From: a virus
Taxonomy: Duplodnaviria; Heunggongvirae; Uroviricota; Caudoviricetes
Virus record (IMG/VR): IMGVR_UViG_2724679293_000007
Location: 32,001 to 96,000 of that record
Reading direction: 5' to 3' (one strand)
DNA: 64,000 nucleotides
The notes under the pieces were generated by a model that was not told the origin of the DNA, did not search any database, and saw only the letters and a list, made by a program, of their open reading frames with translations. Below, piece by piece: positions 19,062 to 32,639 of this stretch (positions within the stretch are counted from its first letter, which is position 1; every line of letters begins with the position of its first letter). A program made the position numbers and the translations under genes.

Positions 19062-22000
19062 TCAACTCTCGCGTAGTCATTCATCAACGGATCATCAATT
19101 GACAGTGGCACCGTGCGCATAACGCCCGGTTGAGGCGTGCTGACCTTTACGACAGTTCCCTGGCCTTTCGCCGAGTCTTTAGTGTGCTCTTCAATCCTGG
19201 CAAGCAATGAGGTCATCTGCGCAAACAGCCGCTTCGTTTCACCATCAAGTGAAACGGTATTATCAGCCAACTGCATTGTCGGCTTGGCACCGGAGCCGCC
19301 AAGGTCACTAATAACCTGTCCGTCTATCTGCATACGACCGGTTGGTTGCTGCAAATCGTTGGCGGCAGTCGTCACCTGGGACGTGGAGGCTGGTTGAGGA
19401 GAATTATTTGAGCGCATTCCCCGGGCATTAATGAGTTTGTCATACAGCCCATCAATCCCCATTTGTGCACCGAGTTGGTCAAAGTAACTTGAGTTGTTTG
19501 CTACCGGACGTGCCTCTTCAACTGGCATAGGTGTATCAACATACACATTGCCAGCTGCCGTTGCGGTTCCCCTTCCTCGTGCACGTTCTTCGAGGGTTCC
19601 CTGAACGACTTCCCGACGCATCCCCCGGCCATTCATGAATTTGTTGACCAGATCGTTAACGCCAACAGCATTGCCGATTTTGTCTACCAGACCGCCTTTC
19701 TCAAACGGGCTATCACCAGGGGTAAACGCCAGGCCAGTAGACTGATCGATAACGGCGTTATCAGGCAGTGGTCCCCTCACTCCATATTGCGCCCCACCCT
19801 GTGCTCCTGCTCCAGGTGTATAGATTTCACCACCCAAATAGCGAGCACGATGAGTATTGACCTTGATCGCGTACTCACGGTTTTCTTTCGATAAGTCACC
19901 TGTGCCTTTTTTCCACTTATTGATAGTGCCAAACCCAGCGTTATATGCAGTGATGGCCTCGTTTAAGTCTCCATTGGCTTGCTTCAGATACTTGCTCATG
20001 AGAAGAGCCGCAGCTTCTGCCGATTTCACAGGATCAAATGCATCCGGTTCCGATATCCCTGTCTCTTTACGAGCAATACTCGTGAACTGGAACATCCCGA
20101 GTGCGCCACCACTTAACTTTCCATCTGGTGATCTTGTAAGCGGAGACTTTGCGTTAGGATCCCCTCCTGATTCAGTTGCAGCAATCGCGTAAAGAGTGCC
20201 TTCTGGAAGACCATATTTATTCTCTAGTTCAGCAAAATATGGAGCCAACTTATCGAGATTTGCCTTACCTTCAGCGCCAAGACTTCCTACTTTTACATCC
20301 AAGTTGCCATTGTTGTAGGTATCCGCAGCTTTCTGAATATCATTCCTGGTTCCAGTAGTATTACGCGACGATGATGACGAGCTATTTTGACCAATGGCTT
20401 TATCAATTTTCTGCAACGCGCGATTGCCCGTTTCTACGGCATTTGCATTGATAATCTGATTAGCAGTTTCTTTAACTGTTTTATTGCTATCTTTCGCCGT
20501 ATCTAAGGATGCATTTACAACACGAGTGACAATATTAGCCTTTTTAGGGGTATATTCAGTCTTAGGAGCATTGCCCTCCTGACGTTCTTTAGCAGGTGTT
20601 TTTAATTCAGGTGTAACCTCTTTCGCATCCGCTTTATTGACTAGCTTTGATGCAACCCAGGCCACAGGGGTGCTCTGAACAGCGGCATCAGCAACCTCAC
20701 CTGAAAGCTCTTTTGCGGCACTCCATAGATTACTGCCAGCCTCTTTAATGTATTTCCCCGGGTTCTTAATGAAATCAATTGCACTATCAATTGCATCACT
20801 GAAAACCTTTTTCAGGTTATCGACAGTAAAGAAGTCTTTGATGGCGTCTAATTTTTCGTTCAGACTCTTGGTTGTGTCACTGAACCAGGCTGAAATAGCA
20901 TCGCCAATCTTGGCTGTGTAATCGTTGAATGTTGTGGATATGGTGTCACCAAGGTTAGAAATGTATGTTTCTAAATTGGTAATCCCACTATCAATGGCCT
21001 GTGCAATACTTTCCGTCGAAAATGATTGCAACATATTGCCGATATCCTCAAATCCAAGTGATTTGAGAACGCCACCAATGGCACTGCTAATACCAGATAC
21101 CAGTCCTCCCATATCGAGAACGTTAGCCAGTGTATAAGCCGCTTTTTGCTGAAAAGATGGATCTTCCCCATCCTTAAGCCCAAAGGTCCGACGTTGTGCT
21201 TCTGTATCATTCCAACCGGTTACCGCATCATAGATACCTCCAACCACCGTGCCGACTAGCGGAATTGCGCGTAAAACCCCCTTTGCAAGTGCCTTAACAC
21301 CTAGTTTCCCCAATCCCTTAGTTGCAAGTTTTCCGGCACCGCGAGTAGCCAATTCGCCAGCTTCTTTGGCAGCAGCTTTTTTCCCACCAAAGCCCAATAA
21401 GCTTGCAACTTTTTTTATACCTAAAGCGCCTAGTGCCATCGAGCCAACTTTCTTTAGTGCCCCACGGCCAAAAATGAGGGAAGCAATACCACCGGCCCCC
21501 TTCCCTAACAGGCTAAATAATTTGGACAGCAAGCCGCCCTTCTTTTTCCCGGTGTTTTTGGCTATCTGATCAAGGGCGCTGAGAATCTTGTCATTGCCCT
21601 CTTTAATTTCGCTGGTCTGATCCTGAAGTTCCTGAACCGTCCGTTTTTGGGTGTTAACCTGAACGACATCGGCACTACTTTGCGATTTACGCCTAAAAAA
21701 ACCTTTTTTACGGCTGTTATCGTCATTGCCACGAATCACATCGGCAATAGACTTTCTGGCACCATTAAGCGATCCGCCAACTTCTTTTGATATCCCGCCA
21801 AGCTCTTTTCCCGCTGCCCACAATGGGCCAGCAACGGCATAACCTAAAGCATCGACGGCACGAGTCTCTGAAGGGTTACCTATACCTTCAGCTACTTTTG
21901 ACAGTTTTTTTAATAAACCTGATTCAGCATTTAGACGCTCATCATCCTCTTTGCGCCTGGTCTTTTCAGCGCGTTCAGCACGGGCATCTTCCGCTGCGGC

Positions 22001-24085: not shown

Positions 24086-24676
<591 letters not shown>

Positions 24677-24805
24677 TTACCCGATTCTACGAGTTGTCAT
24701 TTGTTACCGGTCAGTCTACACATTTCAGATGCTGCGTTAAAAAACCCAAGTACTTCAAGTAGCACATCGTCATCAACACCCAGCCCCAAGATACGGTGAT
24801 AAAAT

Positions 24806-25873
24806 TCAAGCCTTAAGAGGCTTTGTGTATGTTCGTGTAATCCATCCAGTAATAAACTCGTCCCCTGATTTAACCTGCACGAAAAGCCATTGGCGATCTT
24901 TTTTATCTAAAACAGCCACTATAGTATTTTTGCCAATGCATTCAATCACCTCACTATTTATAGAAGGACTGACGTGTAATCTTACGTTCTCACCAGTTAT
25001 AAAACGAAAACCATTGAGATCTTCCCAACTAATTTCTTTGTTTTCTTTAATTAATTGTTGTTTTGATATTGGTTTATCCTCAAACAGAGATATAAAATAT
25101 GATTCTGCCTTGTGTATTCCCAGCAAGGTTTTCTCTTTTCCGTAATCAATAAAAGCACCAAACACAACTTGAGAAAATATAACCATTAGTAACCATTGCA
25201 GTGGATAAGGAAGCTCTTTAAATGAATCAACAAACTTTGAGCTAGGTTTATTTAATCCTTTATTTTGAACATTACTTTTGGTGTGTGATGTTTCAGTAGC
25301 ACCTTCAGCATAAGCCTGCGCAATAGATGAAATCCCCTGCTCTATTATTTGATGTAATGAAGCATTTCTTGTTCTAGCATAGTGATCTAGTACTTTCTTT
25401 ATGTCTTGGCTTACATCTGTTTTATAACTTGCACTTTGTTGTAATTCTTTAAGTATCGCTTGCATGTTATTTAAACCAGCTTGCTTATTAAGCACCTCAA
25501 GCTGTTTTCGTAATGGCATAGCTATTTCGGCCTGTTTCCTTAGCATTTGAATATATCTATTTGCGTCATGAGGGAAAAGAGCCTGAGTCTGTTTCTGTAA
25601 AATCGCGATATGTTCACGATACTTGCTGCCTATTCCAGCCAAGTTCGGCATACTAGCCAATTGTTTTCGAAGAGAGTTACTAATTACAGCTTGTCTATTC
25701 AATCTTGTCATATTTTGAAAAGAATGTTTTTCTATTCCTAATTGTTTTTGCAAGATCGCTACGTGATCTTTGTATGATGGAATGAGCACTGACTGTTTAT
25801 ACAGTAACTTCAACTCATTAGAATTAGTAATTTTTGTCATATTATTCCATTTATATAATAGAATATTACGCAA
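24806..25873 (-). CDS. Hypothetical membrane protein (355 aa): internal repeats, one TM helix, C-terminal SH3b-like segment
   Basis: AT-rich; repeats HVAILQKQ / EHIAILQKQ / RYIQMLRKQ; TM LQWLLMVIFSQVVFGAFI; C-terminal beta-rich domain. Confidence 0.5.
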   Translation of the reverse strand: MRNILLYKWNNMTKITNSNELKLLYKQSVLIPSYKDHVAILQKQLGIEKHSFQNMTRLNRQAVISNSLRKQLASMPNLAGIGSKYREHIAILQKQTQALFPHDANRYIQMLRKQAEIAMPLRKQLEVLNKQAGLNNMQAILKELQQSASYKTDVSQDIKKVLDHYARTRNASLHQIIEQGISSIAQAYAEGATETSHTKSNVQNKGLNKPSSKFVDSFKELPYPLQWLLMVIFSQVVFGAFIDYGKEKTLLGIHKAESYFISLFEDKPISKQQLIKENKEISWEDLNGFRFITGENVRLHVSPSINSEVIECIGKNTIVAVLDKKDRQWLFVQVKSGDEFITGWITRTYTKPLKA

Positions 25874-25914
25874 CCAATGTTTTATTGATTGCGTTAATCT
25901 TTAACACAGAAAGA

Positions 25915-26391
25915 TCATTTGCCTCGTTTAATACATCCATCCATTTTGGCTTGTTGATACAACTTACTTAGCCCAGAAAGAGGGAATGTAGCAATTTTTT
26001 CATTATCAACATAAGCATCAATCATATTAGCATTTGAATCTGCTGCATCTTGCCAAAAGGCATACCACCAAGAATCTCCAACCATTGATCCAAGATTGCT
26101 AAAAGGATATTGCTCACCATCTATAGTTAATACTATTTTATTCTTGTCAGCATTATACTCTTTTTTATTATTCGACGAACTTAGCAACAAGCCTAAACTA
26201 CCTGCACTATCTGGTGAACCATACATGAATCCCATATCACATAAAAAACTTATCTTATCACCATTATGATTATGGATTGTATATTCTCTCCCCCCTCTCT
26301 CTTCAATTACATTCCATTGTAGAGGATCAATTTTTGCAAATGTTCCTGCTGAAACTAACGATACAAATAATAAAAACCATCTCATATTCAT
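25915..26391 (-). CDS. Secreted/periplasmic protein (158 aa) with signal peptide
   Basis: N-terminal MNMRWFLLFVSLVSAGTFA; AT-rich. Confidence 0.5.
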   Translation of the reverse strand: MNMRWFLLFVSLVSAGTFAKIDPLQWNVIEERGGREYTIHNHNGDKISFLCDMGFMYGSPDSAGSLGLLLSSSNNKKEYNADKNKIVLTIDGEQYPFSNLGSMVGDSWWYAFWQDAADSNANMIDAYVDNEKIATFPLSGLSKLYQQAKMDGCIKRGK

Positions 26392-26413
26392 TCTTTTCGC
26401 TTCTTATCTGTAA

Positions 26414-26764
26414 TTATTCTGCAATATCATTTGCCCATTGCACGGCAGCAAAATGAGTACCCAAACCACTCAGGAAAGCAATTACCCCCAAAACAATACT
26501 TGCTGCTGTTGATTCAAACAAAGTACCAATACTATAGCCAATAGCTCCCCATACTAAGCTAAATACAATCATCAATGGTATTGCCAGAAATTTTATTCTT
26601 AAACTAAAAATCAGTCCAAGAAAAGAACCGCCAAAGGCCCACCATGATTTAGACATTAAACCTATCAGTATTGACAGAATTCCTATTTCAATAAAGAGAA
26701 TATTAGATTGCTCTTCATTGAATTTCGCATTTGTTACACCTTTACGAACATGTTCAGATGACAT
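26414..26764 (-). CDS. Small inner-membrane protein (116 aa, about 3 TM)
   Basis: Hydrophobic segments; AT-rich; first gene of the module. Confidence 0.5.
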   Translation of the reverse strand: MSSEHVRKGVTNAKFNEEQSNILFIEIGILSILIGLMSKSWWAFGGSFLGLIFSLRIKFLAIPLMIVFSLVWGAIGYSIGTLFESTAASIVLGVIAFLSGLGTHFAAVQWANDIAE

Positions 26765-26910
26765 GATTAACTATCTCCTGCCACAGATAAAACGCCTTAA
26801 AATAACATTTTGTAGCATAAAGTTTCACCATGCAATGGTCAAAATCTTTGACCCATATCAATTAAACTCATACATTTTAGTTACCAGGGAAATAATTTAC
26901 ATGGTTGCAA

Positions 26911-26927
26911 GTTGCTCTAATTATTTT
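26911..26927 (+). promoter_or_regulatory. C1-operator-like box upstream of immI (Op51-like?)
   Basis: gttgctctaattatttt, 14/17 match to ATTGCTCTAATAAATTT; embedded in an AT-rich promoter-like region. Confidence 0.4.
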
Positions 26928-27104
26928 ATTTTTTTAGCTTCATATGCTACATTAACTTGCTTGCGTGCTAATGCATTTTCGGTTTATCCTAAACAGGCAT
27001 CTTAGTAAAACGGATGCCGGGATTGGAACCCCGGATAATGCAAAAGGCGACACAGACGCCAAAAGCGTCTTTTTTTGTGTCATGCCATCGCACAGCCATA
27101 CGTA

Positions 27105-27200
27105 GCACATAGCTCCGAGATCAATGGTAGTGCTGGCTGGGCTGCCGAAAGGCAGGCCGGTTCCCTTTTGCGCCGGTAGTTCCAACCCAGTCAGTGCTAC
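27105..27200 (+). ncRNA. Candidate c4-type antisense RNA region (boundaries approximate)
   Basis: agttccaacc at about 27180 is complementary to two gattggaacc targets (27022 and 27210), the latter just 5' of the icd Shine-Dalgarno. Confidence 0.3.
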
Positions 27201-27261
27201 CGCCATTGAGATTGGAACCTCACGCGGTAGCTCCTTAAATTAGCAAAAGGAGGCTGCCATT

Positions 27262-27483
27262 GTGGCTACTATCCCTACCCCTACTCATCCTGAATTTATC
27301 TGGCGCTTTTACTCCTGCCAAAAACACCACTATCACTTCGTTATCGCAGCAACAGAAGACGAAGCACGCTCTCAATTGCCTGATGGCCCCTGCATTTTTA
27401 CTGCCCGTTTTTCAACTAACTCGCGCAATTCACTTAGTTACTGGAACCTCCCCTTCTCTGCCGACGTTCAGGGGGGTTTATGA
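27262..27483 (+). CDS. icd: Icd-like small protein (73 aa), translationally coupled to ant
   Basis: GTG start after AAAAGGAGG; stop overlaps the ant start. Confidence 0.55.
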   Translation: MATIPTPTHPEFIWRFYSCQKHHYHFVIAATEDEARSQLPDGPCIFTARFSTNSRNSLSYWNLPFSADVQGGL

Positions 27484-30995: not shown

Positions 30996-31314
30996 GAGAC
31001 CTGGCGGGGAGTGATCCCCGCCACTCTTCGTGTGTCTGGTAACCTCAATGCACCCTTTTCTCCCCAATAGTGTAAAACACAATGAAGTAGAAGGAGTTAT
31101 TTCACATCATGCAAAGATTCAGACCATATCTCCCAATAGCCTTCGCGACATGATGACTTTCAGAAATATCTAGCTGTTAACAAAATTCCATACTTGCTTT
31201 GCTAATACCACCTAGATTATATATGGAAAAATACACCTAAAACTTAAACAAATTATATCCACAACAAACATCCATCTATTAGGATTAAAATTAATTTAAT
31301 AATAAATAATACAA

Positions 31315-31341
31315 CACCGGTTCATTTTCTAACAAACCGGT
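31315..31341 (-). terminator. Rho-independent terminator of the MazG-like gene
   Basis: caccggtt-loop-aaccggtg stem followed on the - strand by a T-rich run. Confidence 0.5.
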
Positions 31342-31349
31342 GGGCACCA

Positions 31350-32420
31350 TTATTGGAATAACTTACTGATTACATTAAAAACATTAAGGGCGTTACTTGC
31401 CACACTAGACATCTTGGCTGAATTTTTTTCGATTGAGTCAAGAACACTTTCGACTTCCGATAAAGTTCTTCTGCTATCTGCATCTTTTCCTGAGTCTATC
31501 GCATCTTTAATTGCAGATATAGCAGACTCTAAATTCTCCTTAAACTCACCTGTCGTCTCATCCTTCAAGAGAAGTTCTAACTCTTGTTTAAGTTTTTCCA
31601 ATGATGCTCTTTTCTCATCAGTTTTACTAATCTTCCCTGAATAACTGACACAAACACATTCTCTTTTATTGCAGACAGGACAACCATTTAGATAATAACT
31701 TTCAAACGCCTCGCCAAGATCATCATCTTTAAAAATAATCCCCCATAAAGAAAACAACCAAGCATATATATCAGCACACTCTTCATGAAGATTTTCTTTG
31801 TTGTAATTTTTATCTTCAATTGATTTAGCATAAGCCTCTTGCAACTCACCCAACTCTTCGAATAACCTGGATGAATGATAAAACCCACCAAAAGTAGACC
31901 AAATGGTTCTATTCGACGGATAGATATCATTAATCATTCGTGGCGCATAAGGCGGAAATTGCATAGGTTTAATAGCGTTATATTTATTGAAAAGCTCATC
32001 TTTAATTCCTTTTGCGCTTCTTATTTTCTCTGGCTTTCTGTGTGTTTGAGAACAGGAACAAGGCGCCCCTAAGCAATAAGGACAGCAACTAGGGAATTTT
32101 TTATAAAATGCTTCCTGTGGTTGTATTTCAAGTTTATCACAGATTGCAAAAAGCCAAGACAATGCTTCTATATAGGTATTTTTTAATAATTCTTTATCCT
32201 GATTACCATCACGAATAAACTCACGTGTTAAATAAGCTGTTTTCCTTGTCAGATAAGAGTACATATACTCAAATGATTTTTCTTCATTTTTTTTGCTGTA
32301 AATACCTACAATAATATTGCTCATATCATTGATACGTAACATGACATTCCTCTTAAATAAGCCAATACTTCCTAGAACCATATATGCTTCGACAAAGATT
32401 AACGGACATCTTGCCTTCAC
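31350..32420 (-). CDS. Tandem MazG/HisE-like all-alpha NTP-pyrophosphohydrolase-like protein with two Cys clusters (about 330-356 aa)
   Basis: Repeat 2 has EELGELQEAYAKS...EECADIYAWLFSLW then CPVCNKRECVCV; repeat 1 is analogous with CCPYCLGAPCSCS; strongly AT-rich. Confidence 0.5.
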   Translation of the reverse strand: MKARCPLIFVEAYMVLGSIGLFKRNVMLRINDMSNIIVGIYSKKNEEKSFEYMYSYLTRKTAYLTREFIRDGNQDKELLKNTYIEALSWLFAICDKLEIQPQEAFYKKFPSCCPYCLGAPCSCSQTHRKPEKIRSAKGIKDELFNKYNAIKPMQFPPYAPRMINDIYPSNRTIWSTFGGFYHSSRLFEELGELQEAYAKSIEDKNYNKENLHEECADIYAWLFSLWGIIFKDDDLGEAFESYYLNGCPVCNKRECVCVSYSGKISKTDEKRASLEKLKQELELLLKDETTGEFKENLESAISAIKDAIDSGKDADSRRTLSEVESVLDSIEKNSAKMSSVASNALNVFNVISKLFQ

Positions 32421-32639
32421 AAACTTTGACGCTACATAAATTTAACCATGTGCATACTAAATATTTAAGGTAGAAAAGTATAGGAGTATTTATTAATAGG
32501 TAACTGTTAGTTTACACTCACTTCATACCAGAGTATTTACAAGATGTTATTTTACTCTATTCGCTAGGCGGTGGAATGCGGTTGTATCAAGGGGAGGTAA
32601 ACCTCCCCCGAAGAAGATTAAAAGTACAAGGGATAACAC

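What the first reader, a model, noticed from the sequence alone, without database searches (positions are those of the whole stretch)
24806..26910. AT-rich three-gene envelope module between the sit operon and immI
Three co-directional, visibly AT-rich genes encode (i) a 116-aa 3-TM inner-membrane protein, (ii) a 158-aa protein with a signal peptide, and (iii) a 355-aa protein with internal HxAILQKQ repeats, one TM helix and a C-terminal SH3b-like domain. The composition contrasts sharply with the flanking backbone of about 50% GC, indicating horizontal acquisition. From memory, P1 has the sim superimmunity genes at this position, but these proteins do not resemble what I recall of Sim. An envelope-located module in a phage-plasmid is a plausible superinfection-exclusion, defence or toxin-immunity system.
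Basis: partly seen in the sequence, partly recalled or inferred. Interest (0 to 1): 0.6.

Follow-up and report, generated by a model that had tools for sequence, protein, structure and literature searches.

The report
Alternative gene cassettes in P1's sim slot
In this P1-like phage-plasmid, three AT-rich envelope-protein genes of unknown function sit where phage P1 keeps its superinfection-exclusion (sim) genes; they are two independently shuffled cassettes, and I think they most likely block entry of rival phage DNA, though nothing here tests that.

Summary
Three minus-strand genes, at 34% GC against 47% for the window, fill exactly the slot between the late promoter LPsit/pmgC and the C1 operator/c4 RNA, where P1 has simC-simB-simA. 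None resembles SimA, SimB or SimC. All three are under purifying selection.

It is not one indivisible module:
- **orfA + orfB.** orfA is a small protein with four hydrophobic segments. orfB is secreted and is a clear homologue of E. coli K-12 YfjT. The pair recurs in other variants of this slot.
- **orfC.** It has a repeat-rich N-terminus, one marginal TM helix and a conserved SH3b domain. Elsewhere it occurs alone, and in other plasmids a DUF4760 gene takes its place.

YfjT-like genes sit in most non-P1 variants of the slot, and elsewhere are repeatedly preceded by small membrane-protein genes. The orfB model is confident but has no solved structural relative. No defence-system model matches.

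Function is inferred only. The most likely role is lysogen-expressed envelope proteins that block DNA entry by superinfecting phages, as Sim or T4 Imm/Sp do (about 0.4). The slot's variability was already published; its alternative contents are uncharacterised. Interest is moderate.

The parts
26414..26764 (-). orfA: 116-aa small polytopic inner-membrane protein. It has four hydrophobic segments, a basic N-terminus, and an AGGAG Shine-Dalgarno 9 nt upstream of the ATG.
   Evidence: ORF; hydrophobicity; RBS read; dN/dS 0.08-0.09. There are 13 clusters of homologues, including Salmonella P1-like plasmids, Vibrio and metagenomes. PHROG 15014 is of unknown function, and there is no Pfam or PADLOC hit.
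25915..26391 (-). orfB: 158-aa secreted (Sec signal peptide, ...AGTFA|K) YfjT-family protein. It has a conserved Cys51/Cys153 pair and conserved Trp26 and Trp109.
   Evidence: ORF. Precomputed PF27224. hhalign against K-12 YfjT gives 99.7% probability, E 2e-25. Conserved columns. AF2 model pLDDT 87.3, pTM 0.79. dN/dS 0.21.
24806..25840 (-). orfC: 344 aa from the ATG (355 aa from the TTG at 25873). The N-terminal ~200 aa are helical, repeat-rich and fast-evolving. A moderately hydrophobic helix follows, then a highly conserved C-terminal SH3b-type domain.
   Evidence: ORF; annotated start; family alignment; SH3_3 hits; dN/dS 0.36-0.59 for the N-terminal part and 0.22-0.34 for the C-terminal part.
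25139..25204 (-). Putative transmembrane/signal-anchor helix of orfC (aa ~213-234, LQWLLMVIFSQVVFGAFI).
   Evidence: Kyte-Doolittle maximum 1.81. A hydrophobic helix is present at this position across the family. The AF2 helix 212-253 has low confidence.
24827..24988 (-). SH3b (SH3_3) domain of orfC (aa 285-338).
   Evidence: Pfam PF08239: E 1e-5, 26.0 bits against a cutoff of 27. 15 of 15 family members match, best E 2.3e-9. There are 35 invariant columns in the C-terminal 90 aa.
26814..26842 (-). Sigma-70-like promoter candidate for the cassette (TTGACC-17-TATGCT). The palindrome GGTCAAAGATTTTGACC overlaps the -35.
   Evidence: Consensus scan (the number of such sites in the region is not above chance). 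Sequence read. Inferred, not shown.
26911..26927 (+). C1-operator-like site (GTTGCTCTAATTATTTT) in the position of P1 Oc4. It marks the right boundary of the variable slot.
   Evidence: Pattern search: 8 sites in the window against 0.31 expected. P1 annotation of Oc4.
24653..24705 (-). Conserved LPsit late-promoter region upstream of pmgC. It marks the left boundary: homology to P1 ends at 24705.
   Evidence: blastn breakpoints; P1 annotation; match to P1 46524-46629.
25868..25894 (-). Hairpin between orfB and orfC (11-bp stem, weak T tail). It may act as an attenuator or mark a cassette junction.
   Evidence: Terminator-like scan; sequence.

Best explanation
The region is the hypervariable 'sim' slot of a P1-like (IncY) phage-plasmid. 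Here it is filled by two independently exchangeable cassettes instead of simABC.

- Cassette 1 is orfA, a small roughly 4-TM inner-membrane protein, plus orfB, a secreted YfjT-family protein.
- Cassette 2 is orfC. I infer it is a bitopic protein with a cytoplasmic repeat domain and an SH3b domain facing the peptidoglycan.

Proposed mechanism (inferred): the genes are transcribed from their own promoter in the lysogen, independently of the late promoter LPsit. Their products sit in the inner membrane and periplasm, where an incoming P1-type tail must cross the peptidoglycan (using the Sit transglycosylase) and then the inner membrane. There they block DNA entry by superinfecting phages. This would be a functional replacement of Sim, with a logic like T4 Imm (membrane) plus Sp (periplasm-facing).

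Shown: location, composition, mosaic structure, family membership, envelope targeting signals and purifying selection. Inferred: expression in lysogeny, orfC topology, and the exclusion function itself.
For: - The slot and orientation are the same as simC-simB-simA, with breakpoints at LPsit and Oc4.
- The sim genes are likewise low-GC (0.336), encode signal-peptide proteins, and are dispensable for plaque formation (PMC10695390).
- All three products carry membrane or secretion signals.
- YfjT-like genes occupy the slot in at least four other variants, in E. coli, Salmonella and Cronobacter P1-like elements.
- In 5,426 complete E. coli genomes at >=80% coverage, the counts are 79 + 33 + 37 for three YfjT-containing variants, plus 46 genomes with the DUF4760 gene that accompanies orfA+orfB in the one plasmid read (L018). 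P1-type simABC is in 127.
- YfjT-like genes are preceded by small TM-protein genes in unrelated contexts: K-12 ypjK-yfjS-yfjT, L020 and L022.
- Distant YfjT-like proteins occur in lytic Serratia jumbo phages.
- The 'SimA-long' partner of YfjT-like genes in sister variants carries a segment 49% identical over 47 aa to Sit. This links the slot to the injection apparatus.
- The orfC SH3b domain is of the cell-wall-binding type.
- dN/dS is below 0.45 for all three genes.
Against: - There is no experiment and no homology to any characterised exclusion protein. Sim. Pfam and PHROGs give no Imm, Sp or Sie hit.
- The promoter is only a consensus match, in a region where such matches are not enriched.
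- The orfC TM helix is marginal and its full-length model failed (pLDDT 40), so a periplasmic SH3b is unproven.
- orfA and orfC homologues also occur outside phage contexts: L013 is chromosomal, and L006 lies next to umuDC.
- Position in a recombination hotspot is weak evidence of function. The same slot also accepts a DUF4760 gene.
Confidence: 0.4

Rival explanations
1. Abortive-infection or other post-entry defence. orfA, perhaps with orfC, is a membrane-disrupting effector that kills or arrests the cell on infection. orfB acts as a sensor or regulator.
For: orfA is a small protein with four hydrophobic segments, as many defence effectors are. A Vibrio orfA homologue lies 309 bp downstream of an ATPase that matches the PADLOC candidate HEC-04 at E 1.6e-54. 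The slot is a low-GC hotspot, as defence islands are.
Against: None of the three proteins matches a PADLOC model. There is no cytoplasmic sensor or enzymatic domain. orfB is secreted, which does not suit sensing a cytoplasmic infection. The Vibrio contig is only 3.4 kb and the genes there may not be co-transcribed.
Confidence: 0.15
2. Lysogenic-conversion morons unrelated to phages. These would be envelope proteins that change host fitness, for example envelope stress tolerance, adhesion or serum resistance.
For: orfC homologues are free-standing, oppositely oriented single genes at other plasmid loci, and one lies next to umuDC in Yersinia. An orfA homologue sits among metabolic genes in an environmental contig. 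A BFVD relative of orfB is labelled 'putative adhesin'. K-12 yfjT lies in a cryptic prophage with no phage phenotype reported in the papers found.
Against: The families are almost confined to phage, plasmid and prophage contexts. The YfjT-like gene stays in the sim slot across Escherichia, Salmonella and Cronobacter elements. This points to a phage-centred benefit.
Confidence: 0.15
3. Orphan immunity against periplasm-acting toxins such as colicins, T6SS or CDI effectors. orfB would be a periplasmic immunity protein, and orfA a membrane immunity protein.
Against: No toxin gene is adjacent in any variant examined. The hcp is divergently oriented. The structural hit is below significance.
Confidence: 0.1
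4. An accessory function in the phage's own lytic cycle. Examples are modulating lysis timing or peptidoglycan remodelling, or helping the neighbouring pmgC-tub-pmgB-sit tail operon.
For: The cassette lies immediately upstream of the sit operon. The orfC SH3b domain resembles the wall-binding domains of endolysin amidases (phrog_1794, E 0.008). Lytic jumbo phages carry YfjT-like genes.
Against: LPsit lies downstream of the cassette, so the late promoter does not drive it. The slot is dispensable in P1 and its content is freely swapped among otherwise near-identical plasmids.
Confidence: 0.1

Closest known systems
Phage P1 superimmunity genes simA-simB-simC
   Same: The genomic slot and orientation are identical, between LPsit/pmgC and Oc4/c4. 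Both have low GC (0.336 against 0.342). Both are three small co-directional genes whose products carry export or membrane signals. The sim slot is non-essential in P1.
   Different: There is no detectable sequence or profile similarity. The window has no SimA-type gene. It includes a polytopic membrane protein and an SH3b protein, which Sim lacks.
E. coli K-12 YfjT (CP4-57 cryptic prophage; Pfam PF27224), function unknown
   Same: orfB is a homologue: BLASTP E 4e-11, hhalign 99.7% probability and E 2e-25. Both are about 155-aa secreted proteins with the conserved Cys pair. Both lie in mobile elements downstream of a small hydrophobic protein gene (ypjK in K-12, orfA here).
   Different: Identity is only 28%. 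K-12 has a lipoprotein gene (yfjS) in between and no SH3b gene. Neither protein has a known function, so the match names the family but not the mechanism.
T4 Imm and Sp superinfection-exclusion proteins (own knowledge; Lu & Henning 1994, cited in PMC13128918)
   Same: The proposed logic is the same: a small inner-membrane protein plus a periplasm-facing protein, made by the resident phage, block DNA entry and tail-lysozyme action of related phages.
   Different: There is no homology (Pfam and PHROG scans list no such family). This is analogy only, and function here is untested.
Bacterial SH3b (SH3_3, PF08239) cell-wall-binding domains
   Same: The C-terminal 55 aa of orfC match the SH3_3 profile across the whole family.
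   Different: The domain is fused to a TM helix and a repeat-rich N-terminal domain, not to a hydrolase. The window protein scores 1 bit below the Pfam cutoff. No solved structure is detectable by sequence.

Membership tests
P1 Sim (SimA/SimB/SimC) | Sequence homology to SimC, the processed exclusion protein, or to SimA/SimB | tested here: not met
   BLASTP best E 2.4, or no hit. hhalign of the YfjT-like profile against SimC and SimB gives 1-2% probability, over the signal peptide only. tblastn of SimA, SimB and SimC against the window finds nothing.
P1 Sim (SimA/SimB/SimC) | Location between pmgC/LPsit and Oc4/c4, transcribed towards pmgC | tested here: met
   P1 annotation and blastn breakpoints at 24705 and 27289; operator at 26911-26927.
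P1 Sim (SimA/SimB/SimC) | Confers exclusion of superinfecting P1 | not testable with these tools
   Needs plating, transduction or DNA-entry assays.
YfjT family (PF27224) | Significant profile similarity to E. coli YfjT over the full length | tested here: met
   hhalign 99.7% probability, E 2e-25, 145 aligned columns. BLASTP E 4e-11. PF27224 is precomputed on the orfB cluster. The local Pfam copy lacks this model.
YfjT family (PF27224) | N-terminal signal peptide and conserved Cys pair/Trp residues | tested here: met
   C51 and W109 are invariant; W26, G33 and C153 are at least 90% conserved in 16 sequences. The signal-peptide region has low pLDDT in the model.
SH3b / SH3_3 (PF08239) | Match to the Pfam profile at or above the gathering score | tested here: inconclusive
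   The window protein scores 26.0 bits against a cutoff of 27, E 1e-5. All 15 family members match at E<=0.01, best 2.3e-9, and the database precomputes PF08239 for most. The full-length AF2 model is too poor to confirm the fold.
Known anti-phage defence systems (PADLOC-DB v2) | Match of any component to a defence-system model | tested here: not met
   No hits at E<=1 for any of the three proteins.
Periplasmic lysozyme/transglycosylase inhibitors (Ivy, PliC/MliC, PliG) | Shared fold with a solved inhibitor | tested here: not met
T4 Imm / Sp, lambda SieB, P22 SieA-type exclusion proteins | Sequence homology to a characterised exclusion protein family | tested here: not met
   Pfam, PHROGs and NCBIfam scans at E<=1 list no such family. 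The three PHROGs matched are of unknown function.

The most novel reading that the evidence does not exclude
YfjT-family secreted proteins, with their small inner-membrane partners (orfA, YpjK and others), are a widespread but unrecognised class of phage- and prophage-encoded blockers of DNA entry. In P1-like elements they would act on the Sit-dependent step of crossing the peptidoglycan and inner membrane, alongside a secreted 'SimA-long' protein that mimics a Sit segment. orfC would add an SH3b anchor to the peptidoglycan. This would give a function to the K-12 y-gene yfjT and would recast P1's classical sim operon as a late replacement of an older exclusion cassette.
Probability: 0.2. Interest if true: 0.65.

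Novelty: new variant of a known kind. Interest (0 to 1): 0.42.

Why it matters
P1-like phage-plasmids are common in E. coli: 509 of 5,426 complete genomes carry the pmgC flank. They also spread resistance genes. What fills their sim slot may decide which related phages can superinfect or transduce into a lysogen.

In these genomes, slot variants with a YfjT-like gene together outnumber the textbook simABC. The counts are 79 + 33 + 37 by direct match, plus 46 with the DUF4760 variant, whose link to orfA+orfB I saw in one plasmid. simABC is in 127. No member of the YfjT family has a known function, including K-12 yfjT.

Showing that these cassettes exclude phages would define a new exclusion family, explain turnover at this hotspot, and give a handle on P1 DNA entry, which is poorly understood. 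If they do something else, they are still among the most frequent accessory genes of this plasmid type.

Tried and rejected
- **Homology to SimA/B/C.** Rejected by BLASTP, hhalign and tblastn.
- **Known defence system.** No PADLOC hit.
- **Weak phmmer hits of orfB.** The hits to a META-domain repeat protein (P0076) and a Cna-B-like repeat protein (P0083) were judged spurious or compositional.
- **Full-length orfC structure.** The model failed (pLDDT 40), so no fold search was done on it. A profile of its C-terminal domain finds no solved structure by sequence.
- **AFDB50 fold library.** Unavailable.
- **Transposon-type insertion.** No flanking direct or inverted repeats.
- **Internal paralogy.** orfA, orfB and orfC match no other window gene.
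- **orfA against other upstream partners.** orfA is not homologous to YpjK or to the L020 116-aa protein.
- **Literature.** Searches for yfjT, ypjK, yfjS, DUF4760 and the contents of the sim slot found no functional data. The P1 genome paper (PMC523184) is not held.
- **Local Pfam copy.** It lacks PF27224, so YfjT membership was tested against the K-12 protein directly.
Full report
**1. What is there**

The window is a P1-like (IncY) phage-plasmid. The region 24600-27300 is 100% identical to E. coli plasmid CP099272.1, and 27 PLSDB plasmids cover at least 80% of that 2.7-kb query. No INPHARED phage carries it at the DNA level.

Three minus-strand ORFs are present:
- orfA, 26414-26764, 116 aa.
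- orfB, 25915-26391, 158 aa.
- orfC, 24806-25873, 355 aa from a TTG. RefSeq starts it at the ATG at 25840, giving 344 aa.

GC is 0.342 for 24806-26910 against 0.470 for the window.

Pairwise Nei-Gojobori estimates against diverged copies give dN/dS of 0.08-0.09 for orfA, 0.21 for orfB and 0.36-0.43 for orfC. These are real genes under purifying selection. The N-terminal half of orfC evolves faster than the C-terminal half (0.36-0.59 against 0.22-0.34).

**2. Where it sits**

In P1, the interval between the late promoter LPsit (upstream of pmgC-tub-pmgB-sit) and the C1 operator Oc4/c4 RNA holds simC-simB-simA, in the same orientation.

- Homology of the window to P1 stops at 24705, just past LPsit, and resumes at 27289 in icd.
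- A C1-operator-like site lies at 26911-26927. The window has 8 such sites against 0.31 expected by chance.
- Rfam finds an isrK-like element at 26997-27075 and C4 RNA at 27120-27207.

So the finding's coordinates are those of the sim slot. P1's own sim region has the same low GC, 0.336. A published comparison lists simABC among eight hypervariable low-GC regions of P1-like phage-plasmids (PMC9603915). In P1, CRISPRi knockdown scored simA, simB and simC as non-essential for plaque formation (PMC10695390).

**3. The proteins**

*orfA.* It has a basic N-terminus and four hydrophobic stretches separated by 2-5 residues, so it is probably a 4-TM inner-membrane protein. It matches no Pfam, NCBIfam or PADLOC model, and its PHROG (15014) has unknown function. 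The indexed search found only 13 clusters of homologues.

*orfB.* It has a Sec-type signal peptide. Its cluster carries a precomputed PF27224 (YfjT) assignment. My local Pfam copy lacks that model, so I compared orfB directly with E. coli K-12 YfjT.
- BLASTP gives E 4e-11, and a 16-sequence profile gives 99.7% probability, E 2e-25.
- C51 and W109 are invariant, and W26, G33 and C153 nearly so. This fits a periplasmic disulfide.
- The family is small: 21 representatives at E<=1e-3 among 1.84 billion cluster representatives.
- AlphaFold2 on 13 sequences gives a confident model (pLDDT 87.3, pTM 0.79) of a beta-rich domain with a long helix.
- In BFVD its only good matches are uncharacterised phage proteins.

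*orfC.* It belongs to a narrow family: 48 clusters, all Enterobacterales, mostly on 90-100 kb contigs.
- The N-terminal part is hypervariable, helical, repeat-rich and of variable length (family members are 344-481 aa).
- A moderately hydrophobic helix follows.
- The C-terminal 90 aa are almost invariant and match SH3_3. The window protein scores 26.0 bits against a cutoff of 27. All 15 members scanned match, best E 2.3e-9.
- The full-length model failed (pLDDT 40).
- The topology, N-terminus in and SH3b in the periplasm, is inferred from the absence of a signal peptide and the single hydrophobic helix.

**4. It is a mosaic, not one module**

At least six fillings of the slot were seen:

| Filling | Where seen |
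|---|---|
| simA-simB-simC | P1 |
| 'SimA-long' (189-215 aa, secreted) + YfjT-like | Ro157c2YLVW, Cronobacter JK004 |
| SimA-long + YfjT-like (168 aa) + orfC-like (60-69% identity) | L008-L011 |
| SimA-long + orfA-like (72%) + YfjT-like | Salmonella L015/L016 |
| orfA + orfB (95% DNA identity) + opposite-strand DUF4760 gene | L018 |
| orfA + orfB + orfC | this window |

Homologues of orfC at 40-45% identity stand alone elsewhere. In Citrobacter and Salmonella plasmids they lie near a darB-like gene, and in Yersinia next to umuDC. No orfA or orfB relative lies within 5 kb of them. Homologues of orfA also occur alone.

The units are therefore orfA+orfB and, separately, orfC.

Counts in 5,426 complete E. 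coli genomes at >=80% coverage:

| Query | Genomes |
|---|---|
| pmgC flank | 499 (509 with any match) |
| P1 simABC | 127 |
| SimA-long + YfjT-158 | 79 |
| SimA-long + YfjT-168 | 33 |
| window cassette | 37 |
| DUF4760 gene | 46 |

Outside P1-like elements, YfjT-like genes are again preceded by small membrane-protein genes. In K-12 these are ypjK (TM) and yfjS (lipoprotein) before yfjT. In L020/L021 it is a 116-aa TM protein. In L022 there are three 2-TM proteins.

**5. Mechanism**

Nothing here measures function. The best-supported inference is a lysogen-expressed envelope system that blocks DNA entry by superinfecting phages. It would functionally replace Sim and be logically similar to T4 Imm plus Sp.

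The grounds are these:
- The slot is the same as sim.
- Both Sim and these proteins are targeted to the envelope.
- The cassette is independent of the late promoter.
- YfjT-like genes persist in the slot across genera.
- They are paired with small membrane proteins.
- They occur in lytic jumbo phages.
- orfC carries a wall-binding-type domain.
- The SimA-long partner in sister variants contains a segment 49% identical over 47 aa to Sit residues 939-981, just after the SLT domain of the injection transglycosylase (pairwise E 8e-9).

Against it:
- There is no homology to any characterised exclusion protein.
- The promoter is only a consensus match.
- The orfC TM helix is marginal.
- Some homologues lie in non-phage contexts.
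- Location in a hotspot is weak evidence of function.

I put this explanation at about 0.4. The rivals are an abortive-infection effector, host-fitness morons, orphan toxin immunity, and an accessory role in lysis or morphogenesis. Each is scored separately in the rivals section.

**6. Novelty**

The slot's variability is published, and the three families already exist as 'unknown function' entries (PHROGs 7086, 3429 and 15014; Pfam YfjT). The searches of the held literature found none of the following:
- the cassette structure of the slot;
- the prevalence of YfjT-like genes there;
- the link to K-12 yfjT;
- the Sit-like segment in SimA-long.

If the function is exclusion, this is a new variant of a known kind.

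Noticed in passing
window 19544-19675 (minus; Sit aa 939-981) versus L003:3302-3949, L016:4234-4902, L010:2901-3419: The secreted 'SimA-long' proteins in the sim slot of other P1-like elements share a segment with the Sit injection transglycosylase/tape measure (core GMRxxVQGTLEERARGxGT). Identity is 49% over 47 aa, pairwise E 8e-9, and the segment lies just downstream of Sit's SLT domain. It may be a periplasmic decoy or mimic of Sit. SimA-long is absent from this window.
   Followed up: partly
L002:3913-4071 (P1 simA) versus L010:2901-3419 and L003:3302-3949: P1 SimA (52 aa) is identical to the first 45 aa of the 172-215 aa SimA-long proteins, then diverges to a stop. P1 simA therefore looks like a truncated remnant left when simB-simC replaced an older SimA-long + YfjT-like cassette. 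That older cassette is present in Escherichia, Salmonella and Cronobacter elements.
   Followed up: partly
window 27120-27207 and 26997-27075 (+): Rfam finds C4 antisense RNA (76.7 bits) and, upstream, an isrK-like element (58.5 bits). RefSeq and GenBank records annotate a 39-aa 'ash family protein' CDS over the C4 RNA (window about 27124-27243), which looks like an annotation artefact. The c4 leader matches D6, JL22 and RCS47, not P1, so immI is probably heteroimmune to P1.
   Followed up: partly
window 31000-32450: A second AT-rich island (GC 0.33-0.36) holds a 356-aa minus-strand ORF (31350-32420) with no Pfam or PADLOC match. It lies near the hok and rlf variable region of P1-like plasmids.
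   Followed up: partly
L014:950-3060 (Vibrio metschnikovii contig): A 62%-identical orfA homologue lies 309 bp downstream of a 482-aa ATPase that matches the PADLOC candidate defence protein HEC-04 (E 1.6e-54). This may link orfA-type membrane proteins to a defence system.
   Followed up: partly
L017:8446-9616 (E. coli K-12 CP4-57 prophage): ypjK (78-aa hydrophobic protein), yfjS (inner-membrane lipoprotein) and yfjT form a run of envelope genes. It is comparable to orfA-orfB here. All three are uncharacterised in the literature searched.
   Followed up: partly
L018:1550-2443 (NZ_CP019075.1) and 46 complete E. coli genomes: A 297-aa DUF4760 membrane protein gene, on the opposite strand, takes the place of orfC next to orfA+orfB. 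It has no PADLOC hit, and the only paper that holds the term mentions it once.
   Followed up: partly
L005, L007, L012 (Citrobacter/Salmonella ~95-kb plasmids) and L006 (Yersinia): orfC homologues with expanded N-terminal repeats (up to 481 aa; for example, repeated copies of an SVSLSERITKLAQGSTIAD-like unit in P0046) occur as lone, oppositely oriented genes. Some lie near a 2262-aa DarB-like gene, and one lies next to umuDC. Repeat number varies between close relatives.
   Followed up: partly
window 24653-24699: A 21-nt inverted repeat (86% complementary, 5-nt loop) lies just upstream of the pmgC start codon, which its left arm overlaps, in the leader conserved with P1. Its function was not examined.
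   Followed up: no
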